Shown: positions 3,028-58,045 of the stretch, one piece after another
Layout: every line of letters starts with the position of its first letter
Numbering within the stretch: the first letter of the stretch is position 1
Assembly (NCBI GenBank): GCA_001793945.1
Contig: MGIW01000006.1
Coordinates: 1,584-65,583 of the forward strand
Source: Candidatus Wolfebacteria bacterium RIFOXYD12_FULL_48_21
GTDB taxonomy: Bacteria; Patescibacteriota; Minisyncoccia; UBA6257; UBA9933
Length of the DNA stretch: 64,000 bases
Reading direction: 5' to 3'
Made by a program: the position numbers and the translations under genes
The notes under the pieces: model-generated
Seen by the model: the letters and a program-made list of their open reading frames with translations, nothing else
What the model was told of the DNA's origin: nothing
Databases searched by the model: none

Positions 3028-3412
3028 GTGTCATCCCCGTCCGCCAGCTGGCGGAGGGATCCAGGGTGCACATGCGAAATACTGGATTCCCGTTTTCACG
3101 GGAATGACAATGCGGGAGGGATAGGGGAAATAACCGATGACTGATAACCGATGACTGATGACGGGGTGCGAGGAGTGTGTCATCCCGAGTGCAACGAAGC
3201 GGAGCGGAGTGAAGTCGAGGGATCTGTAGTTATTGGTGGTGGCAGATTCCTCGACTGTGCGGGGTACCGCGGAGTTTACCCTGAGCTTGTCGAACGGGCT
3301 CGGAATGACAATGCAAAATGCTGGATCTCGGCTTTCCTGCCCGCAGTTGCTACAGCGTTGCAGACGGGTGCAGGAATGACAGAAAGAGGGACAGGAATGA
3401 CAATACAACTCG
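3028..3412. repeat. Cluster of palindromic GTCATTCC elements interleaved with (ATAACCGATGAC)n unit at 3128-3172
   Basis: gtgtcatccccgtccgccagctggcgga; attcccgttttcacgggaatgacaat; gtcatcccgagtgcaacgaagcggagcggag; ctgcccgcagttgctacagcgttgcagacgggtgcaggaatgac (45-bp module repeated at 33320-33375). Confidence 0.8.
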
Positions 3413-7363: not shown

Positions 7364-7720
7364 ATGAATGAGAATGCATATAATCTTGAGCAGCGAACGC
7401 GAGAGTTTTCTGTTCAGGTAATACGATTTCTTAAAACATTACAACAGGATACTATAAGCAGGCCGATTATTGGTCAACTAATACGGTCTGCTACCAGTGT
7501 CGGTGCAAATTATTGTGAGGCAAATGGGGCAAGCTCAAAAAAAGATTTTTGCAATAAAATATTTATTTGCAAAAAAGAGGCCAAAGAAACACATTATTGG
7601 CTTGATCTTATCGAAGAATGTTGCGGATATAAGAAGGAGCTTAATCATTTAAGAAATGAATGTGTCGAGCTGATTAGAATATTTTCTAAAATAGCCGCAA
7701 GTAGCAAAGAGGAGAGGTAA
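7364..7720 (+). CDS. four-helix-bundle protein (23S rRNA intervening-sequence protein family, TIGR02436-like)
   Basis: 118 aa; signature SATSVGANYCEANGASSKKDF...KEAKETHYWL; two paralogs at 22429 and 63131. Confidence 0.8.
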   Translation: MNENAYNLEQRTREFSVQVIRFLKTLQQDTISRPIIGQLIRSATSVGANYCEANGASSKKDFCNKIFICKKEAKETHYWLDLIEECCGYKKELNHLRNECVELIRIFSKIAASSKEER

Positions 7721-7775
7721 TTTGAAATTTAGAATTTTTAATTTATATTTTCAAATTTCGAATTTCAAATTGTAA
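7717..7775. repeat. AT-rich boundary element (ggTAAtttgaaatttagaatttttaatttatattttcaaatttcgaatttcaaattg); supplies stop codon of 7364..7720
   Basis: direct repeat of element at 7331. Confidence 0.75.
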
Positions 7776-10438: not shown

Positions 10439-11488
10439 ATGCATATTGATACCAATAAAAAAATAGTCGTGTTCGATGCGGGTATTCCCCAGCTTTTAGA
10501 CAATAAGGTCTTTGACCCCGTTGCGGCAAAGGCCATAAGCCATACGATATTGCCTGCCTGTTATTTGTATCAAGAAGCGCTTAAGCGGGGCATACAGCTG
10601 GTGACGCCGGATATCTATTTTGCCTTGCCGAACAAGCCCGCGCATGCGCCGTTGATCAGTAATTTGACGAGCGAATATACGCAGCGGCTCATCGATGCGG
10701 GCGTCGAACCGACCCTTCTTGCCTGTGGCGAATCGCCGTTCATCGCTACGCGATTTTATGTCGGTTTGAAACGCATTAGTGCGGCATTTGTGCATTCGTT
10801 TGTGTTTAAGGGGATGAAGAAGCGGCTGAGTAAAAAGACGATTTATCATCAAATGTTTTTTCCACAATCATTTGAAGTGGCTTCTTTTGCGCCGGTTCCG
10901 TTCGGACAAAAAAAGTTCATCACGATGATCAGCGGCAACAAGCGTGTCGATAATTGGAAAAAGAACATCGTACTCAAGTTGCTGTACGGATTCGGGGTGA
11001 CAGAAATCTATGGAAAACGACTGTCGGTCATTGATCATTTTTCGGGCAAGGGGTTCGACTTGTATGGATTTGGATGGGATGCGAGCACGCGGCTGAGCGT
11101 CGTTGCGGCATATCGGGGGACGGTGGAAGATAAAGGTGAAACATTGGCACGATACAAGTTTGCTTTTTGTCTTGAAAACTCTATTTTCGAGGGAAATGTG
11201 ACCGAGAAGATATTTGATGCCTTATTTGCCGCCTGTGTGCCCGTGTATTTGGGCGCACCGGACATTGCCGACTATGTTCCCAAAGATGCATTCATCGACA
11301 TGCGTGATTTTGCTTCGTATGATGCGCTGGAAACATTTTTGCGAGCCATGGATGGAAAAACATACAGCGGATACATCGAGCGCATACAAGCATTTTTACG
11401 GTCGGATCAGTACAAACGCTTTTCTCAGGAACAATATGCAAACGATGTACTTTCTATTCTTGAAGAATCATTCAACAACCATGCCTAA
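10439..11488 (+). CDS. alpha-1,3-fucosyltransferase-like glycosyltransferase (GT10)
   Basis: C-terminal motif YKFAFCLENSIFEGNVTEKIFDAL matches GT10 FucT motif (..CFENS..YVTEK..). Confidence 0.6.
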   Translation: MHIDTNKKIVVFDAGIPQLLDNKVFDPVAAKAISHTILPACYLYQEALKRGIQLVTPDIYFALPNKPAHAPLISNLTSEYTQRLIDAGVEPTLLACGESPFIATRFYVGLKRISAAFVHSFVFKGMKKRLSKKTIYHQMFFPQSFEVASFAPVPFGQKKFITMISGNKRVDNWKKNIVLKLLYGFGVTEIYGKRLSVIDHFSGKGFDLYGFGWDASTRLSVVAAYRGTVEDKGETLARYKFAFCLENSIFEGNVTEKIFDALFAACVPVYLGAPDIADYVPKDAFIDMRDFASYDALETFLRAMDGKTYSGYIERIQAFLRSDQYKRFSQEQYANDVLSILEESFNNHA

Positions 11489-15070: not shown

Positions 15071-15808
15071 ATGCTTAAAGCGATCGTCAAAAAAACAAAA
15101 AAAATTGCATTGCTTCCGCTTATTATTGGGGATTATTTTGCATTCAAAAAAGCAGCCGGCCGTAACGGGCGCTTTACCGTAAATCTTGGCGATGCTTATC
15201 CGTGTCCTTTTGACAAGACCATGTTGACCGGGTTTGATCGGCATTATGTGTATCATACCGCTTGGGCGGCGCGGAAGGTTGCGTACATAAAGCCGGAGGT
15301 CCATACGGATATATCTTCGAGTCTGTATTTTTCTTCCATCGTTTCGGCTTTTGTGCCGGTAACATTTTATGATTATCGGCCGGCCGATCTTCAGTTGAGC
15401 GGCTTGCTTAGTGAAAAGGCAGATCTGCTTGCATTGCCGTTTGCAGACAATAGTGTTGCGTCGCTTTCATGCATGCATACCGTGGAGCATGTGGGGCTGG
15501 GGCGCTATGGCGACCCTATCGACCTAGATGGCGACCTGAAGGCAATCAAGGAGTTGCAGCGGGTGCTTGCGCCGGGCGGATCGCTGTTGTTCGTAGTACC
15601 GATAGGCAAGGCAAAGATCCAATTTAATGCGCATCGCATCTATTCCTACGCCATGATCATGGAATATTTTAATGATCTTGAGTTGAGGGAGTTTTCGCTT
15701 ATTCCCGAAACAAGCGGCTCCATGATCGTCAATGCAACAAGAGAGCAGGCGGACGAGGAGGCATATGGATGTGGATGCTTTTGGTTTGTGAAGAAAGGGA
15801 ATGGGTAA
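15071..15808 (+). CDS. putative SAM-dependent methyltransferase (Methyltransf_11/DUF268-like); stop codon lies inside AT-rich boundary element
   Basis: LQRVLAPGGSLLFVVPIG motif II-like; weak overall. Confidence 0.4.
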   Translation: MLKAIVKKTKKIALLPLIIGDYFAFKKAAGRNGRFTVNLGDAYPCPFDKTMLTGFDRHYVYHTAWAARKVAYIKPEVHTDISSSLYFSSIVSAFVPVTFYDYRPADLQLSGLLSEKADLLALPFADNSVASLSCMHTVEHVGLGRYGDPIDLDGDLKAIKELQRVLAPGGSLLFVVPIGKAKIQFNAHRIYSYAMIMEYFNDLELREFSLIPETSGSMIVNATREQADEEAYGCGCFWFVKKGNG

Positions 15809-15852
15809 TTTGAAATTTAGAATTTTAAATTTTAAATTTATAATTTTATATA
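15803..15852. repeat. AT-rich boundary element (gggtaatttgaaatttagaattttaaattttaaatttataattttatat)
   Basis: same family as 7331/7717. Confidence 0.75.
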
Positions 15853-16718
15853 TGATCATCATCAAATTAAAAGGAGGGTTGGGGAATCAGATGTTCCAGT
15901 ATGCGTGCGCGAAGCATTTGGCCGAGCGTAATGGTGATGTATTGAAATTGGACATCAGCCTTTACCAACCGGGCAATGCTCCCGCGGGCGATACCGCGCG
16001 TTCGTATGCCTTGGGCGCGTTTTCCATTTCCGCACAGGTGGCGAGCAAAGAAGAGGTCCGGCGGGTCAGGGGGCTACTGTGGCACATTATGGCATTAGCC
16101 ATGAAGGTCATTAACAGGGTGCGGCCGATATCCAGTTACATGTTTGACCCGCAGGTATTAGAACGCAGAGGCAATGTGTATCTGGATGGATATTTTCAAA
16201 GCGAGCGATATTTTAAGGATATAAAAGCTTGCATCAGAAATGAATTCCGATTGCGTGAACCTATGGGTGAGCAGGCGCAGGCCATGTTGCGCGACATCGA
16301 CGGATCGGATTCCGTTTCCCTGCATATACGGCGAGGCGATTATGTGACAAATAAAAACGCCAATGCGTTTCATGGGACCTGCCCGCCCGAATATTATCAT
16401 GCGGCTATCAAGGAAATAGGTAAGCATGTACATTCGCCGAAGTTCTTCATATTTTCTGATGACATCGAATGGGCAAAAGCGGATGTCGGCATGCCGGCTC
16501 ATGCTACCTATGTGTCCCGCGATGGCATAGCAGATTATGAGGAGCTTTTATTGATGAGCAAGTGCAAGCACAACATCATCGCGAACAGCAGTTTTAGCTG
16601 GTGGGGTGCGTGGCTCAATGCAAACTCGAACAAGATCGTTGTTGCGCCGAAGCGGTGGATAAACGACGAGCGTGTCGATACGAGTGATGCGGTGCCTGTG
16701 GAATGGGTTAGTATGTGA
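15852..16718 (+). CDS. alpha-1,2-fucosyltransferase (GT11); start moved from 15801 (which reads through the AT-rich repeat) to Met 15852
   Basis: IIKLKGGLGNQMFQYACAKHLA = canonical GT11 N-terminal motif (FutC-like). Confidence 0.75.
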   Translation: MIIIKLKGGLGNQMFQYACAKHLAERNGDVLKLDISLYQPGNAPAGDTARSYALGAFSISAQVASKEEVRRVRGLLWHIMALAMKVINRVRPISSYMFDPQVLERRGNVYLDGYFQSERYFKDIKACIRNEFRLREPMGEQAQAMLRDIDGSDSVSLHIRRGDYVTNKNANAFHGTCPPEYYHAAIKEIGKHVHSPKFFIFSDDIEWAKADVGMPAHATYVSRDGIADYEELLLMSKCKHNIIANSSFSWWGAWLNANSNKIVVAPKRWINDERVDTSDAVPVEWVSM

Positions 16719-18565: not shown

Positions 18566-18690
18566 GATGTGAGGTTGGAGATGTGAGATTAGAGGTGTGA
18601 GGTTGGAGATGGGAGGTATGAGATGCGAGATGAGAGATGAGAGGTGAGAGATGCGAGGTTAGGGGGTGGAGATATGAGACGGGGGGCGGA
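18566..18690. repeat. GA-rich repeat tract (gtgaggttggagatgtgagattagaggtgtgagg...gagatgcgaggttaggggg)
   Basis: direct reading, lies between two minus-strand genes. Confidence 0.7.
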
Positions 18691-22810: not shown

Positions 22811-22855
22811 TATCTTATCTCTCACCTCTGACCTCATACCTCTCATCTCACACCC
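22811..22855. repeat. TC-rich repeat, right inverted repeat partner (tatcttatctctcacctctgacctcatacctctcatctcacaccc)
   Basis: shares cctcatacctct and atctcac with reverse complement of 22368-22399. Confidence 0.65.
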
Positions 22856-24196: not shown

Positions 24197-24214
24197 GGGG
24201 GGTAGTATGTATTT

Positions 24215-24240
24215 GGTATATGGTATACTGTATAATAATT
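24215..24240 (+). promoter_or_regulatory. extended -10-like promoter motif (tggtatatggtatactgtataat)
   Basis: TGGTATACT/TATAAT-like upstream of 24261. Confidence 0.35.
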
Positions 24241-25096: not shown

Positions 25097-25270
25097 ATGA
25101 ACTATTTTAGTTGGGCAAAACTTATTCTTGGTCTTTGGGTGTTCGTTTCTCCATGGGTGCTCGGGTTTGCCGGATATCCACTCGCATTGTGGAGCAACAT
25201 TCTGAGCGGCGCGGGCATTGTTGTTCTTGTGCTTTGGACCTTGTTTGGGAAGAGGGATGCTAACAGATAA
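25097..25270 (+). CDS. SPW-repeat small membrane protein
   Basis: MNYFSWAKLILGLWVFVSPWVLGF; start moved to internal Met. Confidence 0.4.
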   Translation: MNYFSWAKLILGLWVFVSPWVLGFAGYPLALWSNILSGAGIVVLVLWTLFGKRDANR

Positions 25271-25420
25271 CAGATAACCAATAACCGATAACGAGATGCG
25301 AGGGAATAACCAATAACCAATAACAGATAACCAATAACCAATAACGGGATGCGGGAAATAACCTATGACAGATAACTAATAACCGATAACGAGATGCGAG
25401 GGGAAAACATAAAATTATTT
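25262..25420. repeat. (ATAACCRATRAC)n low-complexity repeat, three units each ending in G(A/G)GATGCG(A/G)GG
   Basis: taacagataacagataaccaataaccgataacgagatgcgaggg...ataaccaataacgggatgcggg...ataaccgataacgagatgcgagggg. Confidence 0.8.
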
Positions 25421-25684: not shown

Positions 25685-25748
25685 TGGCAGAATGTATACG
25701 GTATACGGTATACTGTATACATACTACGCTTCTCTTATCTCTAACTAT

Positions 25749-27715: not shown

Positions 27716-29227
27716 ATGAGATATTTTTTACAAACAATCTTTGCCGCTACTATTGTATTATTTTTTATTGCCAATGTTGGTACTGTTTTTGCCGCGGAGG
27801 GGGATTTGGTGTGGACGCAGGTCAATAACCCGAGTGCGATTTCTGATGCCGCGGGACCCATTGCCGTCGACGCGAGCGGCATTTATGTTGCGGGTTATGA
27901 TACAATCCCCGGCAATTACCAGTGGCGCATAGAAAAGCGCAGCCTTTCCGATGGTGCGGTTATATGGACCAAAACAAGTAACCCGAGTTCGGATACTGAT
28001 TATGCGACAGCCATTGCCATCGACGCGAGCGGCATTTATGTCGCTGGGTATGATTATGTTTCCGGCAGGTTCTTTCGATGGCGCATAGAAAAGCGCAGCC
28101 TTTCCGATGGCGCGGTCATATGGACCAAAACGAATGACCCGAGTGCGAGTCATGATATTGCTAACGCCATTACCATCGACGCGAGCGGTATTTATGTCGC
28201 CGGGTTTGATTCTATTCTCGCCAACTATCAATGGCGCATAGAAAAGCGCAGCCTTTCCGACGGCGCGATCATATGGACCAAAACGAACAACCCGAGTGCG
28301 GGCGGTGATTATGCGACAGCCATTACCGTCGACGCGAGCGGCATTTATGTCGCTGGGGTGGATGCTATTCCCGGAAACAATCAATGGCGCATAGAAAAGC
28401 GCAGCCTTTCCGACGGCGCGGTGATTTGGACCCAAACAAGCAATCCGAGTGCGCAACCTGAGGGTGTAGGCGCCATCACCGTCGACGCGAGCGGCATTTA
28501 TGTCGTCGGTGATGATTTTACTCCCGGTTTCGGCAATTCCCAATGGCGCATAGAAAAGCGCAGCCTTTCCGACGGCGCGGTGATTTGGACCCAAACAAGC
28601 AATCCGAGTGCGAGTTATGATGGCCCTGGATCCATTGCCATCAACGCGATCGGTATTTATGTCGCCGGGTTTGATTCTATTCTCGCCAACTATCAATGGC
28701 GCATAGAAAAGCACAGCCTTTCCGACGGTGCGGTCATATGGACTAAAACGAACAACCCGAGTGCGAGTTCTGATGTCCCGGGAGGCATTGCCGTTGATGC
28801 GATTGGTATTTATGTGGCGGGTAATGACCGTGCGTCCGTCAATGATCAATGGCGCATAGAAAAGCGTGAAAGAGCTTCCTTCATCTGCGCTGGTCCGTTT
28901 GCCGCATCTTGGACCGATTCGACCATTACCGCCAACAGCACCAAGATCCGCAAGGTGCACATCGACGAGTTGCGGAGCGCGATAAACACTCGTCGTATCG
29001 ACGCCGGGTTAACTAACTATTCTTGGACCGATCCGACGATCACAGCCAATTCCACCAAAATCCGTAAGGTGCACATTGATGACCTCCGCACGGCAATTTC
29101 GCAAGTCTATACGACCTGTGGGCAAGCGGCCCCGAGTTGGACCGATCCGACGATCACAGCCAACACCACCAAAATCCGCAAGGTGCATATTGATGAATTG
29201 CGGAGCGCGGTCAGTAATGCCCAATAA
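27716..29227 (+). CDS. secreted SBBP-type beta-propeller repeat protein with C-terminal triple 40-aa repeat
   Basis: signal peptide; 7-8 x ~50 aa blades WRIEKRSLSDGAVIWTKTNNPSA...IDASGIYVAGYD (SBBP-like DxSGnIYVTG); then 3 x SWTDPTITANSTKIRKVHIDELRSAI. Confidence 0.55.
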   Translation: MRYFLQTIFAATIVLFFIANVGTVFAAEGDLVWTQVNNPSAISDAAGPIAVDASGIYVAGYDTIPGNYQWRIEKRSLSDGAVIWTKTSNPSSDTDYATAIAIDASGIYVAGYDYVSGRFFRWRIEKRSLSDGAVIWTKTNDPSASHDIANAITIDASGIYVAGFDSILANYQWRIEKRSLSDGAIIWTKTNNPSAGGDYATAITVDASGIYVAGVDAIPGNNQWRIEKRSLSDGAVIWTQTSNPSAQPEGVGAITVDASGIYVVGDDFTPGFGNSQWRIEKRSLSDGAVIWTQTSNPSASYDGPGSIAINAIGIYVAGFDSILANYQWRIEKHSLSDGAVIWTKTNNPSASSDVPGGIAVDAIGIYVAGNDRASVNDQWRIEKRERASFICAGPFAASWTDSTITANSTKIRKVHIDELRSAINTRRIDAGLTNYSWTDPTITANSTKIRKVHIDDLRTAISQVYTTCGQAAPSWTDPTITANTTKIRKVHIDELRSAVSNAQ

Positions 29228-30082: not shown

Positions 30083-30086
30083 TAGC

Positions 30087-30390
30087 ACTGTCATTCCCGT
30101 GAAAACGGGAATCCAGTTTTCTGTACTTTTTTCTAAGAAAAAAGTACCCGTCGGATTCGTGTAAGAATAATCGAATCCGACAGCCCGGCCCGCTGCACAC
30201 TCTCCGCCGGCCCTGCCTACCGGCAGGCAGGTGGCGGATCGTTAGCAACGCCAAGGGTAAAAAGTCGCGAGCGAATAAAAAATGCCGGAGTACCCTATGC
30301 TGTCATCCCGGGCTTGACCCGGGATCTCGATGATTATTGACGAGATTCTGGCTTCCGCTAGTCTGCGGACAGGCGTGGGCCGGAATGACA
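30087..30390. repeat. Cluster of palindromic elements between rpsB and tsf (gtcattcccgtgaaaacgggaatccag; ccgccggccctgcctaccggcaggcaggtggcgga; gtcatcccgggcttgacccgggat; ...ggccggaatgacat) plus two perfect hairpins 30124-30182
   Basis: direct reading. Confidence 0.8.
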
Positions 30391-33061: not shown

Positions 33062-33123
33062 TGTCATTCCCGCGGAGGCGGGAATCCAGTATTATATAGA
33101 TTCCCGCCTCCGCGGGAATGACA
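33062..33123. repeat. palindromic element: gtcattcccgcggaggcgggaatccag...gattcccgcctccgcgggaatgacac (nested inverted copies)
   Basis: direct reading. Confidence 0.8.
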
Positions 33124-33378: not shown

Positions 33379-33446
33379 GCCTCACTTTTTGCTTACCGTT
33401 GTTAGTTATGGGTTGTTAGTTATAGGTTATTTAGTATACTAAAACC

Positions 33447-35842: not shown

Positions 35843-37114
35843 ATGCAGCGCATTTATTTGGACAATGCGGCGACCACGCCGCTGGATAGCGAAGTAAAAC
35901 AGGCCATGGAGCCTTATTTTGGCGATACATACGGCAATCCGAACTCGTTGCATTGGTTCGGCCAGCAGGCGCGGGCGGCCGTTGACCGGGCACGCGAAAC
36001 GATCGCCAACGCCATTGGTTCCCGATTTAGAGAGGTCATTTTTACCGGGTCGGCGACCGAAGCGAACAACTTGGCAATACGGGGTGCCATTATGCATGCG
36101 CGTGAGACTTTTAACAAAATTGCCGATGGCCGGCCTATGAAGGTTATTGTTTCGACCATAGAGCATGATTCCATTTTGGCCGCCGTGCGGGACATTGAAA
36201 AAGAAGGTGTGGAGGTGGTGCGCATTCCGGTCGATGGCCGTGGATTTGTGGATGTGCAAAAACTTGAGGCGGCGCTCGACGAACGCACCGTGCTGGTATC
36301 GATCATGTATGCGAACAACGAGATTGGGTCCATACAGCCGATCAAAGAAATCGCGAATATACTTAAAAAGTTTCGCGAACGGGAACATGCGTTGCCCTAT
36401 TATCCGCTATTGCATACCGACGCGGTGCAGGCGTTTCAATTTTTGGATTGCACTGTCGATGAACTGGGTGTCGATTTGATGACGCTTTCGGCACATAAGC
36501 TCTACGGACCGAAAGGCATCGGTGCGTTGTATGCACGCACCATGAATACGGTCATGCACGCAAAGGACAACCGCGTCCACATGATACGCCCTCGCGTATC
36601 GGGAGGCGGGCAGGAGTTTGGCATGCGTTCAGGCACGGAAAATGTGGCCGCCATCGCGGGCTTCGCGAAAGCGGTTGAACTGGCGCAAGTGCATCGCACC
36701 AATGAGGGGGAGCGACTTGTGGGATTGCAAAAACGCTTGTGGATTGGGATTCAGGATGCATGCCCCGAAGCAATCATAAACGGGGTTGAAGTGGATTCCC
36801 GCCTCCGCGGGAATGACAGAGGGGAGGGTGGGAATGACAATACAAAAGAGATGACGCTCCCGAACATTCTTAATGTACATGTGCCCGGTAAAAAGGGAGG
36901 GGATCTGCTCATCGCGCTCGATATGCGCGGCATTGCGGTTTCCAGTGGGTCCGCATGCGCGGCATTTTCCGCAAAGCCGTCCCATGTGCTTATGGCACTT
37001 GGGTTTACCGATGCCCGCGCGGGTGGCAGTCTGCGGTTCAGTTTCGGGCGCCACACGACCCAGGAGGACATCGATGGCGCCGTTGAAGCGCTGCGTGCCG
37101 TTTTGCGGGCCTAA
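35843..37114 (+). CDS. iscS: cysteine desulfurase (IscS/NifS family, class V aminotransferase) carrying an in-frame 48-nt palindromic-repeat insertion
   Basis: MQRIYLDNAATTPLD..., PLP Lys in SAHKLYGPKGIGALY, active-site SSGSACA; insertion DSRLRGNDRGEGGNDN encoded by gattcccgcctccgcgggaatgacagaggggagggtgggaatgacaat. Confidence 0.85.
   Translation: MQRIYLDNAATTPLDSEVKQAMEPYFGDTYGNPNSLHWFGQQARAAVDRARETIANAIGSRFREVIFTGSATEANNLAIRGAIMHARETFNKIADGRPMKVIVSTIEHDSILAAVRDIEKEGVEVVRIPVDGRGFVDVQKLEAALDERTVLVSIMYANNEIGSIQPIKEIANILKKFREREHALPYYPLLHTDAVQAFQFLDCTVDELGVDLMTLSAHKLYGPKGIGALYARTMNTVMHAKDNRVHMIRPRVSGGGQEFGMRSGTENVAAIAGFAKAVELAQVHRTNEGERLVGLQKRLWIGIQDACPEAIINGVEVDSRLRGNDRGEGGNDNTKEMTLPNILNVHVPGKKGGDLLIALDMRGIAVSSGSACAAFSAKPSHVLMALGFTDARAGGSLRFSFGRHTTQEDIDGAVEALRAVLRA
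36794..36841. repeat. palindromic GGAATGACA element embedded in frame in iscS-like CDS
   Basis: sequence identical in style to intergenic copies (cf. 46040-46101, 33062-33123). Confidence 0.8.
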
Positions 37115-46002: not shown

Positions 46003-46101
46003 CAGATTCCTCGTCCGCCGGCTGGCGGATCGGAATGGCAATGCAACATGCTGGATTCCCGCCTCCGCGGGAATGACAGAGAGATGGATGGGAATGACAC
46101 C
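46003..46101. repeat. palindromic elements (cagattcctcgtccgccggctggcggatcggaatggcaat; gattcccgcctccgcgggaatgacagagagatggatgggaatgacac)
   Basis: direct reading; forms spurious N-terminal extension of ORF 45938.. Confidence 0.8.
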
Positions 46102-46141: not shown

Positions 46142-47887
46142 ATGAGGATCACCAATGCCGAGATCGCACAATTGTTGAGTGAAATAGCGGAATATCTTGA
46201 AATGGACGATGTGCTATTTAAGCCGCGTGCGTACCAAAAGGTGGCAGATGCCATCGCGGCTTTGGATGAAGAAATTGTCGAGATCCATAAAAAGGGCGGT
46301 TTAAAAGCAGTTAGCAGTATTCCCGGTGTGGGCGCTTCCATTGCAAAAACGATCGAAGAATACATACAAACGGGACGCATCGCCCAATACGAAGAATTGA
46401 AGAAAAAGATCCCTGTCGATCTGCGTAGTTTGACGGCGGTCGAAGGCTTGGGCCCGAAGAAGATCAAGAAATTGTACAAGGCGCTTGATGTTAAAACTTT
46501 GGACGATCTGGAAAAGGCGGCGGCCTCGGGCGCGCTTGCAAAAGTGGAAGGATTTGGCGCGAAGTCGGTGGAGAATATTTTGAAAGGGATCGAATTTGTA
46601 AAGACATCGGGAGGCCGACTTATTTTGGGCAATGCATTTCCCGTGATCGAATATATCAGGGACGGACTTGCGAAAGTCAAAGGAGTGGAGCGCGTGGATA
46701 TTGTTGGTTCGGCGCGGCGGAAAAAGGAAACGGTGGGCGATTTTGACCTGTTGGTCATTGCGAAAGATTCCGGCCCTGTGATGCACTTTTTTGTGCATAT
46801 GGACGAGGTTGTGCTCGTACATGCGCAAGGCGAAACAAAAGCTTCGGTGCGCATTAAGGCGGGCATCGATGTGGATGTTCGCGTTGTCGCGCGGGAATCA
46901 TATGGCGCCGCGCTGTTGTATTTTACCGGGTCAAAGGCGCACAATGTCGCCTTGCGGCAAATGGCCATTAAAAAAGGGTTGAAGCTGAACGAATATGGAC
47001 TGTTCCGCATGAAGGGAGGGAAGGAAGAAAAGATGATCGCTGGCGATACGGAGGAGGGTATTTATAACGCATTGGGTCTTACCTATGTGGAGCCGGAAAT
47101 GCGCGAAGATGTCGGAGAACTTGAGCTTGCACAAAATCATAAACTGCCGGTATTGGTCGATTACGATGCCATGAAAGGAGATATGCAGATGCATACCAAC
47201 TGGAGCGATGGCGCAAATACGATCGAGGAGCTTGCTTATGCGGCCATGGCTTTGGGTTTGGAATATATTGTCATTACGGATCATACGAAGCGATTGACCG
47301 TTGCCAACGGGCTTGATGAGACCCGACTGCTTGAGCATATGAAAGCGGTTGATGCAGTAAATGCGAAACTGAAAAAAGAAGGGAAGAAGTTCACCGTACT
47401 TAAAGGGAGCGAAGTGGACATTTTGAAGGATGGATCCCTCGACATGTCCGATGCAGTTTTGGCGAAGCTGGATGTGGCGGGTGCCTCGGTGCATTCGTAT
47501 TTTAACTTGCCGCGCGAAGCGCAAACGAAACGCATTATTGCTGCTATGGAAAATCCGCATGTGGATATCATTTTTCATCCGACGGGGCGGGTCATTAACA
47601 GGCGACCTGCATATGATGTAGATATGGATGCCATTATCGAGGCGGCGAAGCGCACCAAGACGGTGCTCGAGATCAATGCATTTCCCGATCGGCTCGATCT
47701 TAAAGATGAATATGTACGCAAGTGCGTACGCGCGGGAGTAAAGTTGTCCATCGGTACCGATGCGCATGCCATCGCGCATTTGTCGTATCTTGCGTGGGGT
47801 GTGGGGCAGGCCCGCAGGGGTTGGGCGGAGCGAAGCGATATTGTGAATGCATGGCCTGTGGAGAAGATGAAGAAGATGCTTAAATAA
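46142..47887 (+). CDS. polX: DNA polymerase X family protein with C-terminal PHP phosphoesterase domain (PolX); start moved to MRITNAEIAQLL (alternative Met at 46094 lies inside repeat)
   Basis: HhH motifs (GVGASIAKTIEE, GLGPKKIKKLY), pol-beta-like nucleotidyltransferase GSARRKKETVGDFDLLV, PHP His-rich C-terminus. Confidence 0.8.
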   Translation: MRITNAEIAQLLSEIAEYLEMDDVLFKPRAYQKVADAIAALDEEIVEIHKKGGLKAVSSIPGVGASIAKTIEEYIQTGRIAQYEELKKKIPVDLRSLTAVEGLGPKKIKKLYKALDVKTLDDLEKAAASGALAKVEGFGAKSVENILKGIEFVKTSGGRLILGNAFPVIEYIRDGLAKVKGVERVDIVGSARRKKETVGDFDLLVIAKDSGPVMHFFVHMDEVVLVHAQGETKASVRIKAGIDVDVRVVARESYGAALLYFTGSKAHNVALRQMAIKKGLKLNEYGLFRMKGGKEEKMIAGDTEEGIYNALGLTYVEPEMREDVGELELAQNHKLPVLVDYDAMKGDMQMHTNWSDGANTIEELAYAAMALGLEYIVITDHTKRLTVANGLDETRLLEHMKAVDAVNAKLKKEGKKFTVLKGSEVDILKDGSLDMSDAVLAKLDVAGASVHSYFNLPREAQTKRIIAAMENPHVDIIFHPTGRVINRRPAYDVDMDAIIEAAKRTKTVLEINAFPDRLDLKDEYVRKCVRAGVKLSIGTDAHAIAHLSYLAWGVGQARRGWAERSDIVNAWPVEKMKKMLK

Positions 47888-48075
47888 CCTACAACCGACA
47901 ACTAACGACCTATAACGGGATGCAAAGGTTGTCATTCCGGCCTACGAGCCGGAATCTCATGAAAAAATCATGGGATTATAGATCAAGAAATTTGAAAATT
48001 AATGACATTTAATGTCGTTAAAAATATGCGGGTGCTATTGTCGACGAGATCCCGGGTCAAGCCCGGGATGACAAA
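47887..48075. repeat. (ACAACCGACAACTAACGACCTATAAC)GGGATGC unit followed by palindromic element fragments (ttgtcattccggcctacgagccggaat; gatcccgggtcaagcccgggatgacaa)
   Basis: direct reading. Confidence 0.7.
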
Positions 48076-48794: not shown

Positions 48795-49973
48795 ATGAAA
48801 AACCTTTCCGCATTGTACGACCGGAATCTTTCCGAAGAGATCGTCATCGTTCGCGTCGATCTGAATATTAATAACAAGACCTTGCGTGTAAGCGGGCCTA
48901 ATTTGCGCGTCACCTCCATTATCCCAACGATCAAATTCTTGACCAAGCGTGGCGCAAAGGTCGTGCTGGTCAGCCATCGGGGAAGACCGGCTGGCGTAAC
49001 CAATAACCAACGACCAATAACCGATAACATAAAAGAATTTACATTGAAACCGTTTGCGAAGATCCTTGGTGGATTACTGAAGAAAGATGTTTCGTTTATT
49101 CCGCACGATACGAAAGAATATCGTTTGTTTTCGGATGCGAGCGCCGAGAAGATCAAAAAAGCCTCAAAGGGTTCCGTGTTCCTGCTTGAAAACATGCGTT
49201 TCTTTGCCGGCGAAGAGAAGAACGACCCCGCCGTCGTGCGTCCGCTTGCGGAGCTGGGTACATTTTATGTGAATGACGCATTTGCCGTCAGTCATCGCAA
49301 GAACGCTTCGGTGGTCGCCATCACCAAGCTATTGCCTTCGTGCGCGGGGCTTCTGTTGGAAAAGGAAGTGTTTCATATGGACGAAGCAATCAATAACCAT
49401 AAACATCCGTTTGTGGTCATTTTGGGTGGCGCAAAAATGACCGACAAGATGGGGCTGATCAAGCGCTTTATCGGCAAAGCCGATTACTTTCTCGCGGGGG
49501 GTGGCGTGGCCAATACATTTTTTGCGGCCGACGGCCTGCCGATCGGCGATTCCATTTATGAATCGCACATGATCCCCGTTGCAAAAAAGATCATGAAAAC
49601 GAACAAGGTCATTATGCCTATGGATGTTGCCATTTTCGAACGAAAGATCGTAGACAACGGCCCGGGAACGACCGACGAGTGGGTGGAGATCATCAAAAAC
49701 GCAAAGACGATCATTTGGAATGGGCCGGTAGGCGTTATTGAAAACAAAAAATTTGCCAAGGGTTCCGTTGGCATTGCGCAGGCCATCGCCAAGAGCAAGG
49801 CGTTTTCTGTGGTGGGTGGTGGTGAAACAGCACTTGCCTTTACAGGCGTTCCGCTTAAAAAGAACACATTTCTTTCTACGGGGGGTGGTGCGATGTTGGA
49901 GTACCTTTCTGGCATCAAGCTGCCTGGAATAGAGGCGCTGCGCGAGAAAAAAGGAAAAGGAAAAAAGAAATAA
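48795..49973 (+). CDS. pgk: phosphoglycerate kinase carrying an in-frame (ATAACC)-repeat insertion
   Basis: 392 aa; VRVDLNI, SHRGRP, VFLLENMRFFAGEEKNDP, YVNDAFAVSHR motifs; between GRP and EFTLKPF sits GVTNNQRPITDNIK encoded by aaccaataaccaacgaccaataaccgataac. Confidence 0.9.
   Translation: MKNLSALYDRNLSEEIVIVRVDLNINNKTLRVSGPNLRVTSIIPTIKFLTKRGAKVVLVSHRGRPAGVTNNQRPITDNIKEFTLKPFAKILGGLLKKDVSFIPHDTKEYRLFSDASAEKIKKASKGSVFLLENMRFFAGEEKNDPAVVRPLAELGTFYVNDAFAVSHRKNASVVAITKLLPSCAGLLLEKEVFHMDEAINNHKHPFVVILGGAKMTDKMGLIKRFIGKADYFLAGGGVANTFFAADGLPIGDSIYESHMIPVAKKIMKTNKVIMPMDVAIFERKIVDNGPGTTDEWVEIIKNAKTIIWNGPVGVIENKKFAKGSVGIAQAIAKSKAFSVVGGGETALAFTGVPLKKNTFLSTGGGAMLEYLSGIKLPGIEALREKKGKGKKK
48998..49029. 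repeat. (ATAACCRAYRAC)n repeat embedded in frame in pgk
   Basis: sequence matches intergenic repeat units at 25262-25420. Confidence 0.75.
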
Positions 49974-49978
49974 GGAAA

Positions 49979-50112
49979 CTTGTCATTCCGAGCGGAGAAG
50001 TACCCTTCGCAGGCGAGGAATCTGCAGTTATGTTACTGCAGATCCTTCGTCCGCCAGCTGGCGGATCAGGATGACGATGTACTGGATTCCGGCCTCCGCC
50101 GGAATGACAAAG
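49979..50112. repeat. palindromic element cluster (cttgtcattccgagcggagaagtacccttcgcaggcgaggaatctgcag...ccgccagctggcggatcaggatgacgat...gattccggcctccgccggaatgacaaa)
   Basis: direct reading; creates spurious TTG-initiated N-terminal extension of ORF 49980.. Confidence 0.8.
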
Positions 50113-50135
50113 AATGGAATTTGGATGATAATGCG

Positions 50136-50993
50136 ATGAAACAGCAACAAACAAAACTGAAAAATATCGTCGTGCTTTATCATAACGGGTGCAGCGATGG
50201 GTTTGGTGGTGCGTGGGCGGCATGGCAGATATTTAAGAATAAGGCCACCTATGTTCCTGTCGATCACGGCAGGGTCATGACGGACGATCTTGTCGATAAA
50301 GAGGTCTATCTGATAGACCTTTGTTTTTCTATAGAGGTTATGCGCGACCTGTTGGCAAAGAACAAAAAGGTGATCGTACTTGACCATCATATCAGCCAGC
50401 GTGATGCCGTCGGTATTTCTACGGAACATGTATACGATAACAACCGATCCGGTGCGATGATCGCATGGCAGTATTTTTCCCCCGATGCGCCGATTCCGAA
50501 ATTATTGAAACATATCCAGGATATTGATCTGTGGAAGTTCAAGATATCGCATACCCGGGAATTGATGGCCGCATTGAATGAATATCCGTTCGAGTTCAGA
50601 ACATGGAACAAGATCGCGCAGGAATGGGAAGACAAGGAAACCATAAAAAAGTATATCGGGGACGGGAAGTCCATTTTAAAATACGAAGATCGCATTGTTG
50701 ATCGTTTGATTCGGCATGCCGAGCGCGTCGAGTTTGAAGGAAAGACCGCGTATGCGGTCAATTCGCCCATTCTTGAATCGGAGATCGGGAATTGGATCGT
50801 GAAACACAGAAAAGCGATCGGGATCGTTTGGGCATATAAAGGACGCGATGTGCGTGTATCGTTGCGTTCCGACGGCAAGACCGATGTTTCCGAGCTTGCC
50901 CAGCGGTATGGCGGAGGAGGGCACAAGGCGTCGGCCGGGTTTGCATTTGATGTACAGTTGGCGTTTCCATGGGTCAAGCATGTGCCAAAGTAA
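50136..50993 (+). CDS. DHH-family phosphoesterase (NrnA-like bifunctional oligoribonuclease/pAp phosphatase)
   Basis: VVLYHNGCSDGFGGAWAAW DHH motif I, VIVLDHH motif, C-terminal GGGHKASAG DHHA1 motif. Confidence 0.7.
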   Translation: MKQQQTKLKNIVVLYHNGCSDGFGGAWAAWQIFKNKATYVPVDHGRVMTDDLVDKEVYLIDLCFSIEVMRDLLAKNKKVIVLDHHISQRDAVGISTEHVYDNNRSGAMIAWQYFSPDAPIPKLLKHIQDIDLWKFKISHTRELMAALNEYPFEFRTWNKIAQEWEDKETIKKYIGDGKSILKYEDRIVDRLIRHAERVEFEGKTAYAVNSPILESEIGNWIVKHRKAIGIVWAYKGRDVRVSLRSDGKTDVSELAQRYGGGGHKASAGFAFDVQLAFPWVKHVPK

Positions 50994-51052
50994 GCGAGCC
51001 ATTGGTTTGACATGATTTGCATTTTAGGGTATTAATATATCAGTTGTAATTA

Positions 51053-51580
51053 CCGCTATGTCGGTAGGGAGGCGATTACCTTTTTGCTTCGGCAAAGGGG
51101 AGGAAGGTCCGGACACTCATTTGTCCCACCGATCAGGCCAATGTCTTGCGGCAACGGTTGAAGCAACCGCGCTACCGCTTCGTGTTGTCGTGGGATGTTG
51201 ATCTGATCGGTGGGATATCTAACAAGATAGCGGCTAACAGCCGTCGGGAGCGATCCTCGAGGTGCGAGCAGAGACGCCGCAATTTGAAAAAATTGCGGGC
51301 CCTGTACCGCATGGTACAGGGTAGCTCTTATGGAAACATAGGAGGTGAAACGGCTAAATCCTTATCGGGTGCAAGGTCGTACTCTTGTCCTTCGGACAAG
51401 AACTTATAACCAATGACCTATAACTAATAACGGGAATTCTCGTTATGAGTTAATGGTCATGAGTTTTTGGTTCTTGCCCGGAGGGCAGGGGGGTACCGCA
51501 CGAACTTTGGAGCGATCCAAGGTCCAGATACATTATCGTCGAGACACAGAATCCGGCCTATCACCTGCCGATATAGCGGT
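51053..51580 (+). ncRNA. rnpB: RNase P RNA (bacterial type) containing a ~70-nt (ATAACC)-family repeat insertion at 51397-51470
   Basis: P4 strands GGAGGAAGGTCCGGACACTC and ACAGAATCCGGCCTA; terminal P1 pairing ccgctatgtcggtagggagg / cctatcacctgccgatatagcgg; followed by terminator. Confidence 0.75.
51397..51470. repeat. (ATAACC)-family hairpin element inside rnpB (cttataaccaatgacctataactaataacgggaattctcgttatgagttaatggtcatgag)
   Basis: shares ataaccaatgac / ataactaataac words with intergenic repeats; internal palindromes ataacg..cgttat and tgacc..ggtca. Confidence 0.6.
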
Positions 51581-51592
51581 GACTACAACATA

Positions 51593-51626
51593 AAAACAGC
51601 CCCCCTCACGGGCTGTTTTTATATGT
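51593..51626 (+). terminator. rho-independent terminator (aaaaacagcccccctcacgggctgttttt)
   Basis: direct reading after rnpB. Confidence 0.65.
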
Positions 51627-51668
51627 ATGCTTTGCATTACGAAACTTCATTTGCTGCTTTAAAATAGC

Positions 51669-51752
51669 ACTGTCATCCTGAATTTATTTCAGGATCTCTC
51701 AGTGATATCAATCAGATTCTGAATCCGCCGGCTGGCGGATCAGAATGACAAA
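51669..51752. repeat. palindromic element variant (ctgtcatcctgaatttatttcaggatctc...cagattctgaatccgccggctggcggatcagaatgacaaa)
   Basis: direct reading. Confidence 0.75.
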
Positions 51753-51785
51753 ATGAGTTTTGTAATTCAAAGTGTATAGGCTATA

Positions 51786-53141
51786 TCAAATAAACGATAC
51801 CAATAGTGCAATAGCAAATATTGCCATGATCGCGAATGCCGTCCACAGGCCCAGCTTTGAAAGCCATCCGCTTTTGTATTCTCCCATAACATCCTCCCGG
51901 CTCGAGATGCGTGCTATGAGGAAAATGAGCGGTACGGCTGCTATGCCGTTAAACACCGCCGTAAAGACAAGCGCCTTGATGGGATTGAAGCCGATGAAAT
52001 TAAACAGTAGTCCTGCCAAGGTGCCAAAGATGATCACGAAATAGAAATTGCGCGATTGCCGAAACTTTCTATACAGTCCTTCGCGCCAACTGAACGTTTC
52101 CGCCACGGCATAGGCCGAGGAGCCTGCGAGAACGGGAATGCTTTGCAGTCCTATGCCGATGATACCTATGGCAAAGATTAGCTTTGCGAGGAAGCCGGCG
52201 TTGGGAAATGTATGTACGAGCGGTTCGAGCGCGCGAGCGGCATCGGCAGCTGTTTCTATTGTAGTAATGCCTGCTTGGTTTAGTACTACGGCGCCTACGA
52301 TGATGATGAACCATGCGGTGACATTGGAAAATAGCATGCCGATGGCCGTATCGATACGCAACCGTTTTAGGTACGATCGTGTAAGATGGGGGATGCCGCC
52401 GCGCTGAGGGAGTCTATGGTTTGCTATTTCTTCCTCTACGACATTGCTTGTCTGCCAAAAAAACAAATAGGGTGAAATGGTCGTGCCGAAAATGGCAACA
52501 ATGATATAAAGGTATGTGGCACTCCACTCCACGCGCGGCGTGAAGGTTGCCTTGAGTACTGTGAGCCACGGAACATCAATCAAAAAAGCGGTGATGAAAT
52601 AGGCAAACAAGGCCATCGACAGCCACTTCAAGATGCGGATGTATGTCCGATAGGAAATAAATACCTCGAGCAATATGATGAGCAGTGCAAAGGCGATTGC
52701 GAGTAGCGGGAATGGCAGCGCAGGCACGAGCAATTCCGCGCTGGCGGCCATTGCACCGATGTCCGAGCCGATGTTAAGCGTGTTGGCAAGCACCACCAGC
52801 CCGACAACCGGGTAGAGTATTTTTTTCGGATAATGTTCGCGTACCGCCGCGGCCAAACCCTTGCCTGTAATGGCTCCTATGCGCATGCACGCTTCCTGTA
52901 CCGCTGTCATGAGCGGATAGGTAACAAGCATGGTCCACGGCATTTGAAAACCGAATTGTGCGCCTGCTTGCGAGTAGGTTGCGATGCCCGACGGATCGTC
53001 GTCAGCCGCGCCCGTTACGATGCCGGGGCCAAGGATCCGCAAAAAGCGGCTGAACCGTTTCAGACGCTTATGCTCTACGGGTTTTTCTTCCACTTTTTGC
53101 CCTACTGCCTCGTTGAGTATTTCGTCGGGGAACTGGACCAT
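51786..53141 (-). CDS. mntH: Nramp-family divalent metal (Mn2+/Fe2+) transporter
   Basis: 451 aa, 11 TM, N-terminal GPGIVTGAADDDPSGIATYSQAGAQFGF Nramp signature. Confidence 0.85.
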   Translation of the reverse strand: MVQFPDEILNEAVGQKVEEKPVEHKRLKRFSRFLRILGPGIVTGAADDDPSGIATYSQAGAQFGFQMPWTMLVTYPLMTAVQEACMRIGAITGKGLAAAVREHYPKKILYPVVGLVVLANTLNIGSDIGAMAASAELLVPALPFPLLAIAFALLIILLEVFISYRTYIRILKWLSMALFAYFITAFLIDVPWLTVLKATFTPRVEWSATYLYIIVAIFGTTISPYLFFWQTSNVVEEEIANHRLPQRGGIPHLTRSYLKRLRIDTAIGMLFSNVTAWFIIIVGAVVLNQAGITTIETAADAARALEPLVHTFPNAGFLAKLIFAIGIIGIGLQSIPVLAGSSAYAVAETFSWREGLYRKFRQSRNFYFVIIFGTLAGLLFNFIGFNPIKALVFTAVFNGIAAVPLIFLIARISSREDVMGEYKSGWLSKLGLWTAFAIMAIFAIALLVSFI

Positions 53142-53582: not shown

Positions 53583-53776
53583 ATTGAGATAGTATATTTA
53601 ATTCTGTAAGTCGACCCTTCTCATAGGCCTCGAGAGCGCATAAAACAAAAACGTTTTACCTTCATTATCCACATCCGCTACAGCAGTTCAGGATTGGAAG
53701 CAAACTGAGAAAACTTACTGTTCACAGTATAAACCACCTCTCTATAAATAGCAAATGGCGTTGGGGGGGAGGGGGG

Positions 53777-53820
53777 ATAACTGATGACTGATGACTAATG
53801 ACCGATGACGGGATGCGGGG
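53777..53820. repeat. (ATAACTGATGAC)n repeat ending GGGATGCGGGG
   Basis: gataactgatgactgatgactaatgaccgatgacgggatgcgggg; preceded by G-tracts. Confidence 0.75.
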
Positions 53821-58012: not shown

Positions 58013-58045
58013 GAAAGTAATTTGAAATTTAAAATTCGAAATGAC
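58013..58045. repeat. AT-rich boundary element (gaaagtaatttgaaatttaaaattcgaaatgac) abutting start codon of 56115..58010
   Basis: same family as 7331/7717/15803/60686. Confidence 0.7.

What the first reader, a model, noticed from the sequence alone, without database searches (positions are those of the whole stretch)
51397..51470. Repeat-family hairpin element embedded inside RNase P RNA
The RNase P RNA (51053-51580) is identified by its P4 strands and its P1 terminal helix. It carries a 70-75-nt segment (cttataaccaatgacctataactaataacgggaattctcgttatgagttaatggtcatgag) built from the same ATAACC-type words as the intergenic repeats. The segment contains internal palindromes (ataacg/cgttat and tgacc/ggtca). 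It lies between a P-helix hairpin (cttgtccttcggacaag) and the 3' core. A mobile repeat tolerated inside an essential ribozyme, most likely as an extension of a peripheral helix, is unusual and parallels the in-frame protein insertions.
Basis: partly seen in the sequence, partly recalled or inferred. Interest (0 to 1): 0.75.

Follow-up and report, generated by a model that had tools for sequence, protein, structure and literature searches.

The report
Heptamer-repeat hairpin inside RNase P RNA
In this groundwater Wolfebacteria (CPR) genome, a short conserved hairpin of the essential RNase P RNA has been replaced by a rod of about 110 nt built from the genome's own 7-nt tandem repeats, which closely parallels a case known since 1997 in cyanobacteria.

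Summary
Rfam's class A RNase P model matches 51060-51576 (76 bits, E 3e-23, below the curated cut-off). The flagged bases fall in an unaligned insert in the P15-P17 region, and P18, the P4 3' strand and P1 lie downstream.

The insert is a hairpin with two arms of five 7-nt units (consensus YRATRAC). The arms run head-to-head and sit on a 14-bp outer stem, so the whole rod is 51382-51491. The same unit family forms eight other arrays in the window, against 0.005 expected by chance.

The closest relative, L011, has the rod with some units changed. Eight other Wolfebacteria rnpB genes have a conserved 6-bp, GNRA-capped hairpin at that position. Among the roughly 110 other CPR rnpB genes examined, three more carry their own heptamer hairpins at the same site.

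The best reading is a tolerated expansion of peripheral helix P16, seeded by the genome's STRR-like heptamer repeats. "Mobile element" is not shown: the window holds no second hairpin copy and no transposon-like ends. Retention in the mature RNA is untested.

The closest precedent is Vioque 1997, which reported STRR repeats in helix P12 of cyanobacterial rnpB. I rate this a new variant of a known kind, of moderate interest.

The parts
51054..51579 (+). rnpB, RNase P RNA (class A-like, diverged CPR form)
   Evidence: RF00010 matches 51060-51576 at 76.3 bits, E 3.2e-23, full model. The outermost P1 pairs CCGCUAU/AUAGCGG are read directly and appear in the fold. Orthologous rnpB sits in the same PGK-DHH-rnpB-Nramp context in 9 relatives.
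51382..51491 (+). Lineage-specific P16 expansion rod, the whole segment that replaces the ancestral CCAAUA-GNRA-UAUUGG hairpin
   Evidence: It folds as one independent hairpin both in isolation and within the full-length RNA, in MFE and centroid structures. The distance from the anchor to the P4 3' strand is 213 nt, against 123-124 nt in 8 other Wolfebacteria.
51382..51395 (+). 5' strand of the outer stem (not made of heptamers)
   Evidence: It pairs with 51478-51491 at probabilities 0.89-1.00. No match elsewhere in the window.
51397..51431 (+). 5' arm: five heptamers, CAAGAAC TTATAAC CAATGAC CTATAAC TAATAAC
   Evidence: Lag-7 identity 0.64, p = 0.0002. It matches 23 of 26 positions at 25358-25383 and is 79% identical to 25311-25349. 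Unit scores are in the top 0.05-0.4%.
51432..51441 (+). Apex GGGAAUUCUC: three closing pairs and an AAUU loop at 51435-51438
   Evidence: Folds. The sequence ATAAC-GGGA matches the 3' end of the intergenic arrays (ATAAC-GRGATGCG).
51442..51476 (+). 3' arm: the reverse complement reads CAAGAAC CAAAAAC TCATGAC CATTAAC TCATAAC, followed by GAGA
   Evidence: Lag-7 identity 0.54, p = 0.008. 28 of 35 positions pair with the 5' arm; unit position 2 pairs in only 1 of 5 units, while positions 5-7 always pair. Unit scores are in the top 0.4%.
51478..51491 (+). 3' strand of the outer stem
25265..25390 (+). Three tandem modules of the same ATAAC-type heptamer family (intergenic), the best match to the rnpB 5' arm
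3128..3162 (+). ATAAC/ATGAC heptamer array of the same family
47882..47916 (+). Heptamer array of the same family, starting at the stop codon of the PolX gene
49001..49028 (+). Heptamer array of the same family, in frame inside PGK
53775..53809 (+). ATGAC heptamer array of the same family
33398..33432 (-). The only array of the family on the minus strand
51124..51215 (+). Second large block of rnpB left unaligned by Rfam: a ~92-nt hairpin conserved in Wolfebacteria and not repeat-derived
   Evidence: with a compensatory change in L007.
51597..51620 (+). Likely intrinsic terminator of rnpB (CAGCCC-loop-GGGCTG followed by TTTTT)
   Evidence: Read directly. The consensus scan did not call it.

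Best explanation
The segment is a lineage-specific expansion of peripheral helix P16 of the RNase P RNA. P16 is the stem distal to the P15/L15 internal loop in the catalytic domain.

In the common ancestor of this organism and its sister Wolfebacteria RIFOXYB1_FULL_54_12, the ancestral hairpin was replaced. That hairpin had 6 bp and a GNRA cap. The replacement is a rod of about 110 nt. Its core is two head-to-head arrays of the genome's ATAAC-type heptanucleotide tandem repeat (an STRR-like family), with five units per arm.

Both arms follow the same unit consensus, YRATRAC. As a result they pair automatically at the conserved positions and mismatch at the variable position. This gives a helix of 5-6-bp blocks separated by small internal loops.

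The rod folds as an independent domain pointing away from the P4 core. The ribozyme therefore tolerates it, and it drifts faster than the rest of the RNA.

Shown: the location of the insert, its repeat-family membership, the fold prediction, its absence from relatives, and its faster divergence.

Inferred: that it is retained in the mature RNA, that it is neutral or nearly so, and that it arose by repeat invasion or slippage rather than transposition.
For: 1. Placement. cmscan puts the bases in an insert at model positions 245/246, with all core elements on either side.
2. Assembly support. The rod is identical in nine contigs from ENA and JGI assemblies, so it is not an assembly artefact.
3. 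Phylogenetic distribution. L011 (92% PGK identity) has the rod with the same outer stem, loop and 5+5 units, but 7 substitutions. Eight other Wolfebacteria rnpB genes in the same gene order have CCAAUA-G(C/U)(A/G)A-UAUUGG instead.
4. Link to the genome's repeats. L011 carries ATAACCN arrays elsewhere on its contig, while L012 and L013 show none in 13 kb each.
5. Family membership of both arms.
6. Mismatch pattern. Mismatches concentrate at the variable unit position: pairs per position are 4, 1, 4, 4, 5, 5, 5 out of 5.
7. Divergence. Window versus L011 differs at 8.7% of sites inside the insert and 2.5% in the rest of rnpB, Fisher p = 0.011.
8. Independent domain in the full-length fold.
9. 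Recurrence. Other CPR rnpB genes carry different heptamer hairpins in the same slot (L021, L082, L083) or at other sites (L085, L060), and their contigs hold 7-nt arrays elsewhere.
10. Literature. CPR RNase P RNAs are known to score below the Rfam cut-offs and to have extended helices, including P15 (PMC8172020). STRR repeats lengthen P12 of cyanobacterial rnpB (Vioque 1997; title). P12 is described as dispensable there (PMC2858038).
Against: - There are no expression data, so retention in the mature RNA and activity of the expanded ribozyme are untested.
- Only two sequence versions of the rod exist, so the helix has no real covariation support. It rests on thermodynamic prediction.
- The lost hairpin was strictly conserved, with a GNRA cap, in 8 of 8 relatives. 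Replacing it may not have been neutral.
- The outer 14-bp stem is not made of heptamers and its origin is unexplained.
- No other array of this family in the window is palindromic, so how a head-to-head pair arose is unknown. The arms are no closer to each other (71%) than to the genomic arrays (75-82%). That neither supports nor excludes an inverted duplication.
Confidence: 0.7

Rival explanations
1. The segment is a discrete mobile hairpin element (MITE, REP or RPE-like) that transposed into rnpB as a unit.
For: The window is rich in small palindromic repeats. Other CPR rnpB genes carry REP-like hairpins. The rod is absent from 8 relatives.
Against: No second copy of the hairpin exists in the 64-kb window. 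BLAST of the 3' arm and of the outer stems finds nothing, and only the 5' arm matches, always to one-stranded tandem arrays. No other ATAAC array has a nearby complementary partner. There are no terminal inverted repeats or target-site duplication beyond the heptamers themselves. The ancestral hairpin is replaced rather than split.
Confidence: 0.1
2. The segment is an intervening sequence in the manner of rRNA IVSs. The long hairpin is a substrate for RNase III and is excised after transcription, leaving a two-piece RNase P RNA held together by the core helices.
For: The anatomy matches rRNA IVSs: an extended hairpin replaces a conserved terminal loop, with a sporadic distribution among close relatives. 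The rod is about 50 bp of near-duplex.
Against: There is no direct evidence. The helix is interrupted every 5-6 bp by mismatches. From my own knowledge, I do not know of cleavage being reported for the cyanobacterial STRR-extended P12.
Confidence: 0.1
3. The segment is a selected functional module, for example a binding platform for a lineage-specific protein or a stabilising strut that compensates for lost tertiary contacts in a reduced CPR RNase P RNA.
For: The rod is retained in two species-level lineages and is identical across nine contigs. The P16/17 slot is hit repeatedly in unrelated CPR rnpB genes.
Against: It diverges 3.5 times faster than the rest of the RNA. Some changes between the window and L011 break pairs and others make them. 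The inserts in other lineages share no sequence, only the 7-nt period. Repeated use of one slot is equally expected if that slot is simply the most permissive.
Confidence: 0.1

Closest known systems
STRR (short tandemly repeated repetitive) heptanucleotide sequences inside rnpB of heterocyst-forming cyanobacteria (Vioque, Nucleic Acids Res 1997, 25:3471)
   Same: In both cases genome-wide 7-nt tandem repeats sit inside the RNase P RNA gene and lengthen a peripheral helix. They are present in some strains and absent or different in close relatives. From my own knowledge of that paper, they are dispensable for catalysis in vitro. The paper's title is confirmed, and P12 is called dispensable in cyanobacteria.
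   Different: The phylum differs (CPR Wolfebacteria, not cyanobacteria). The helix differs (P16 in the catalytic domain, not P12 in the specificity domain). The unit differs (YRATRAC). Here a conserved GNRA-capped hairpin was replaced. The full text of that paper was not available, so the fine anatomy could not be compared.
Diverged CPR RNase P RNAs with extended helices (Lui, Nielsen and Arkin 2021, PMC8172020)
   Same: These are also CPR rnpB genes that score below the Rfam cut-offs, with 'large extensions of helices', including an extended P15, and loss of other helices.
   Different: In the passages I read, that paper does not link the extensions to genomic repeat families or to a 7-nt periodicity.
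Rickettsia palindromic elements (RPEs) and similar small palindromic repeats inserted in frame into genes (own knowledge)
   Same: Repeats are tolerated inside essential genes, and the family has in-frame insertions in proteins (PGK here).
   Different: RPEs are discrete dispersed elements of about 100-150 bp with many full-length copies. Here the dispersed family is a tandem heptamer array, and the rnpB hairpin is unique in the window.
Intervening sequences (IVS) of bacterial 23S and 16S rRNA (own knowledge)
   Same: In both cases an extended hairpin replaces a conserved terminal loop of an essential structural RNA, with a sporadic distribution among relatives.
   Different: IVSs are defined by excision by RNase III. 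Excision was not tested here.

Membership tests
Bacterial RNase P RNA, class A (Rfam RF00010) | Conserved P4 strands (GAGGAARGUCCGG ... ACAGAAnCCGGC) and the P1 terminal helix | tested here: met
   Full-length model match 1-367, E 3.2e-23. P1 is seen in the fold.
Bacterial RNase P RNA, class A (Rfam RF00010) | Score at or above the curated gathering threshold (100 bits) | tested here: not met
   76.3 bits, and absent from the gathering run. The same holds for all nine other CPR rnpB genes scored (41-89 bits). This agrees with PMC8172020. The shortfall comes from two large inserts, not from a defective core.
Bacterial RNase P RNA, class A (Rfam RF00010) | Orthology with rnpB of relatives (same gene neighbourhood) | tested here: met
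   The PGK-DHH-rnpB-Nramp order is conserved in L011-L013 and L135-L140.
STRR-type heptanucleotide repeats within rnpB (Vioque 1997) | Tandem units of 7 nt | tested here: met
   Lag-7 identity is 0.64 and 0.54 in the two arms (p = 0.0002 and 0.008). TRF calls a period of 7 in the L011 copy.
STRR-type heptanucleotide repeats within rnpB (Vioque 1997) | The same unit family is dispersed as arrays elsewhere in the genome | tested here: met
   9 strict arrays against 0.005 expected. All ten units score in the top 0.4% or better against the family matrix.
STRR-type heptanucleotide repeats within rnpB (Vioque 1997) | The repeats lengthen helix P12 | tested here: not met
   The insert is at model positions 245/246, in the P15-P17 region. 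P12 here is short and free of repeats.
STRR-type heptanucleotide repeats within rnpB (Vioque 1997) | Recent origin: absent or different in close relatives | tested here: met
   Absent from 8 Wolfebacteria, and altered at the unit level in L011.
STRR-type heptanucleotide repeats within rnpB (Vioque 1997) | Host is a heterocyst-forming cyanobacterium with STRR1-3 unit sequences | tested here: not met
   The host is Candidatus Wolfebacteria and the unit is YRATRAC.
STRR-type heptanucleotide repeats within rnpB (Vioque 1997) | Retained in the RNA and dispensable for catalysis in vitro | not testable with these tools
   This needs RNA-seq or a Northern blot, and a ribozyme assay.
MITE, REP or RPE-type mobile palindromic element | Multiple full-length copies with conserved ends in the same genome | tested here: not met
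   No other hairpin copy in 64 kb, and the outer stem and 3' arm have no matches. Only 64 kb of the genome was searched.
MITE, REP or RPE-type mobile palindromic element | Terminal inverted repeats with a target-site duplication | tested here: not met
   Comparison with the empty sites in L012, L013 and L135-L140 shows replacement of CCAATAGCAATATTGG, not a duplication.
rRNA-type intervening sequence | An extended hairpin replaces a conserved terminal loop, sporadically among relatives | tested here: met
rRNA-type intervening sequence | Excised from the mature RNA by RNase III | not testable with these tools
   No transcript data are available.
Group I or group II intron | Match to an intron covariance model | tested here: not met
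   No intron family appears among the Rfam matches up to E = 10 in 50900-51750.

The most novel reading that the evidence does not exclude
CPR bacteria may carry a previously undescribed, STRR-like system of heptanucleotide repeats. In this window the arrays are strand-biased, and modules are punctuated by GRGATGCGRG. The system repeatedly remodels essential molecules. It has entered RNase P RNA independently in several lineages, preferentially at the P16/17 slot, and it has entered proteins in frame. It may account for many of the unexplained 'extended helices' that make CPR RNase P RNAs invisible to standard annotation. A stronger form of this reading is that the rods are not inert. They might be cleaved to give split RNase P RNAs, or bound by a lineage-specific factor.
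Probability: 0.2. Interest if true: 0.7.

Novelty: new variant of a known kind. Interest (0 to 1): 0.45.

Why it matters
- It gives a concrete origin for one of the helix extensions that push CPR RNase P RNAs below the Rfam cut-offs. In the default run, rnpB in this window is not annotated at all.
- It shows that invasion of rnpB by heptamer repeats, so far a cyanobacterial curiosity, also happens in an unrelated phylum with a reduced genome. There it hits a different helix and occurs in several lineages.
- It identifies P16/17 as a permissive slot in the ribozyme, even where the ancestral hairpin was strictly conserved.
- It flags 7-nt tandem arrays as a general but undescribed feature of some CPR genomes.

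Tried and rejected
- The default Rfam run at the gathering threshold found only two tRNAs. rnpB appeared only with permissive filters. Weak microRNA and sRNA matches to the hairpin (E 0.02-2) are generic long-hairpin hits and were dismissed.
- Strain variants from exact-protein look-ups (L001-L010) showed no variation in the hairpin. L007 shows a 78-nt duplication elsewhere in rnpB that looks like an assembly artefact.
- The consensus scan for promoters and terminators did not call the evident TTGACA-17-TATTAA promoter or the downstream terminator. Both are read by eye only.
- BLAST of the 3' arm and outer stems against the rest of the window gave nothing. A search for local inverted repeats found no other ATAAC-type hairpin.
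- The test of inverted duplication against two independent arrays was inconclusive.
Contig fragment L114 has a similar local hairpin and is cut off too early to decide.
- The full text of Vioque 1997 is not held. Literature searches for heptamer or STRR repeats in Patescibacteria returned nothing.
- An assembly artefact is rejected because the same sequence occurs in nine contigs from ENA and JGI assemblies and, in diverged form, in a GTDB genome.

Full report
**What is there**

The region 50800-51800 reads as the first-stage reader quoted it. A default Rfam scan of the whole window finds only two tRNAs. With permissive filters, the class A bacterial RNase P model RF00010 matches 51060-51576 on the + strand over its full length. 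The score is 76.3 bits, E 3.2e-23, which is below the curated cut-off of 100 bits.

The alignment contains the conserved P4 strands, P1-P3, P9-P14, P15 and P18. It leaves two large blocks unaligned. One is about 100 nt near 51127-51240. The other is exactly the flagged segment, placed as an insert between model positions 245 and 246 in the P15-P16-P17 region. P18, the P4 3' strand and the P1 3' strand all lie downstream.

**Anatomy of the insert**

The segment 51383-51500 folds into one long hairpin of -59.5 kcal/mol, with z = -9.5 against shuffles. The same hairpin forms as an independent domain in the MFE and centroid folds of the whole 526-nt RNA.

Its core, 51397-51476, consists of three parts:
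- five heptamers: CAAGAAC TTATAAC CAATGAC CTATAAC TAATAAC;
- an apex: GGGAAUUCUC;
- five complementary heptamers.

The reverse complement of the 3' arm reads CAAGAAC CAAAAAC TCATGAC CATTAAC TCATAAC. Lag-7 identity is 0.64 and 0.54 in the two arms, with p = 0.0002 and 0.008. Of the 35 arm positions, 28 pair. Unit positions 5-7 always pair, and position 2, the most variable position of the family, pairs in only 1 of 5 units. The pairing is therefore what two inverted copies of one repeat consensus would give.

Outside the arms, 51382-51395 pairs with 51478-51491. This single-rod structure is 12 kcal/mol better than the alternative in which cttgtccttcggacaag forms its own hairpin, and its pairs have probabilities of 0.89-1.00.

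**Relation to the repeats of the genome**

The window is full of 7-nt-period arrays belonging to several families. Strict arrays of three or more NNAYRAC units occur nine times, against 0.005 in shuffles. One of the nine is the rnpB 5' arm.

Six of the nine arrays end in GRGATGCGRG. The rnpB 5' arm ends in ATAAC-GGGA, and the complement of the 3' arm ends in ATAAC-GAGA. The 5' arm matches the array at 25358-25383 at 23 of 26 positions. All ten units of both arms rank in the top 0.05-0.4% of window 7-mers against the family matrix.

The 3' arm and the outer stem have no BLAST match elsewhere. No other ATAAC array has a complementary partner nearby. The dispersed family is therefore a one-stranded tandem array, and the palindromic arrangement is unique to rnpB in this window.

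**Source and relatives**

Exact-protein look-up places the window on a 235-kb scaffold from the Rifle groundwater data. Nine contigs from ENA and JGI assemblies carry an identical hairpin.

A scan of GTDB genomes with the PGK gene identifies Candidatus Wolfebacteria. The closest genome is RIFOXYB1_FULL_54_12 (L011, 92% PGK identity). It has the same rod, with the same outer stem, apex and 5+5 units, but with seven substitutions. Two more distant genomes, L012 and L013, have only CCAAUA-GYAA-UAUUGG at the site.

Six further Wolfebacteria contigs were reached through homologues of the neighbouring DHH protein. They keep the PGK-DHH-rnpB-Nramp order, and all have the short GNRA-capped hairpin. 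The ancestral state is thus a conserved 6-bp hairpin. The rod is a derived replacement, a net gain of 89 nt, in the window/L011 clade.

L011 carries ATAACCN arrays elsewhere on its contig, whereas L012 and L013 show none in 13 kb each. Between the window and L011, the insert differs at 8.7% of sites and the rest of rnpB at 2.5%, Fisher p = 0.011. The other unaligned block, 51124-51215, is conserved in the three relatives aligned (L011-L013), so it is a lineage feature and not repeat-derived.

**Wider CPR context**

A 21-mer just upstream of the site is conserved across many CPR rnpB genes. One metagenome scan with it returned 120 loci. The segment from P15 to the P4 3' strand has a median length of 101 nt, against 170 nt in the window.

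Three other rnpB types (L021, L082, L083) carry hairpins built from their own, different heptamers at the P16/17 site. cmscan confirms the slot for L021 and L082; the L083 alignment was not shown. L085 has one between P18 and P4. L021 and L060 have arrays at several sites. The contigs checked (L021, L082, L083, L085) hold 7-nt arrays outside rnpB as well. I did not determine the taxonomy of these contigs.

**Interpretation**

The best-supported reading is a tolerated expansion of peripheral helix P16, seeded by the genome's STRR-like heptamer repeats. It was inherited vertically in a small clade and evolves under relaxed constraint.

The following steps are inferred rather than shown:
- retention in the mature RNA;
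- neutrality;
- the mechanism by which a head-to-head pair of arrays arose. The arms are 71% alike, which is no closer than each is to genomic arrays (75-82%). Inverted duplication is therefore neither supported nor excluded.

The rivals are a discrete mobile hairpin, an RNase III-excised intervening sequence, and a selected functional module. None is excluded outright. The first is disfavoured by the lack of any second copy or defined ends. The last is disfavoured by the fast, partly pair-breaking divergence.

**Comparison with what is known**

The closest precedent is Vioque (1997), whose title states that STRR sequences are present within rnpB of heterocyst-forming cyanobacteria. From my own knowledge of that paper, the STRRs lengthen P12, differ between close strains and are not needed for catalysis in vitro. 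PMC2858038 cites it for P12 being dispensable. The full text could not be read.

Lui et al. 2021 report that CPR RNase P RNAs fall below the Rfam thresholds and have large helix extensions, including P15. The passages I read draw no link to repeats. Searches for heptamer or STRR repeats in Patescibacteria found nothing.

The present case shares the defining logic of the cyanobacterial one: 7-nt tandem units, a dispersed family, a peripheral helix, and a recent origin. It differs in phylum, helix, unit sequence, and in replacing a conserved hairpin.

**Verdict**

This is a new variant of a known kind, of moderate interest (0.45). Its value lies mainly in explaining why CPR rnpB genes are missed by annotation, and in pointing to an undescribed class of heptamer repeats in CPR genomes.

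Noticed in passing
window 51124-51215: A second large block of rnpB left unaligned by Rfam. It is a ~92-nt hairpin after P5, in a P5.1-like position. It is conserved in L011-L013, shows a compensatory G-C to A-U change in strain L007, and is not repeat-derived. Together with the P16 rod it pushes the Rfam score below the gathering threshold.
   Followed up: partly
window 195-221, 2936-3008, 18566-18662, 22819-22854 (GAGATGN); 7719-7771, 15807-15855, 58019-58042 (AATTTNA); 24209-24227, 25694-25720 (GTATACN): At least three further families of 7-nt tandem arrays lie in intergenic DNA, mostly on one strand. In the ATAAC family, 8 of 9 arrays are on the + strand, and GC skew is positive across the whole window. 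This suggests a link to replication direction.
   Followed up: no
window 25248-25404: Three tandem modules, each made of a GRGATGCGRG punctuation motif followed by 4-6 ATAACCN heptamers (period 45-53 nt). The role of the punctuation motif is unknown.
   Followed up: partly
window 49001-49028 (inside PGK, 48795-49973): Four heptamers of the same family lie in frame and encode VTNNQRPITDN. The 7-aa block is absent from the L013 orthologue and has a different sequence in L012. L011 has its own heptamer version at L011:6203-6234.
   Followed up: partly
window 49980-50135 (5' end of the DHH gene call): The called 337-aa DHH protein has a 52-aa N-terminal extension not found in relatives (most of them 277-294 aa). 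The extension runs through REP-like hairpins at 50036-50109, so the true start is probably the ATG encoding MKQQQTK.
   Followed up: partly
window 33062-33123, 36792-36820, 46048-46088, 50080-50109, 3078-3113, 30085-30120 and others: Several families of small GC-rich palindromic (REP-like) repeats, such as TGTCATTCCCGCGGAGGCGGGAATCCA and TGTCATCCCGAGYGCARCGAAGCG, occur in many copies in both orientations.
   Followed up: no
L021:8057-8606, L060 (rnpB core about 10700-11300), L082:2341-2860, L083, L085:4430-4771: Other CPR rnpB genes carry hairpins built from their own heptamers. The hairpins sit at P16/17 in L021, L082 and L083, and between P18 and P4 in L085. L021 and L060 have them at several helices.
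   Followed up: partly
L022, L045, L089, L105, L111 (downstream of the 21-mer anchor): These CPR rnpB genes contain long inserts with GAGCRTCCCGAG...CGAGGGA-type hairpins in P15-17 or between P18 and the P4 3' strand. They resemble the REP-like repeats seen in this window.
   Followed up: no
L007:2863-3109: A strain-variant contig has a 78-nt direct duplication inside rnpB (GGTGGGATATCTAAC...GCAATTTG). This is probably an assembly artefact. The same contig has a shortened P13 and compensatory changes in P14.
   Followed up: no
window 27827-28866: A tandem repeat with a 153-nt period and about 6.7 copies (78% matches), probably a repeated protein domain.
   Followed up: no
window 51487-51497 versus L012 and L135-L140: On the 3' side of the P15/16 internal loop, the window, L011 and L013 keep a G-rich GGGU before the P15 3' strand. 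Seven relatives read UUUGU there. So a possible CCA-binding GGU motif varies within Wolfebacteria (compare PMC8172020).
   Followed up: no
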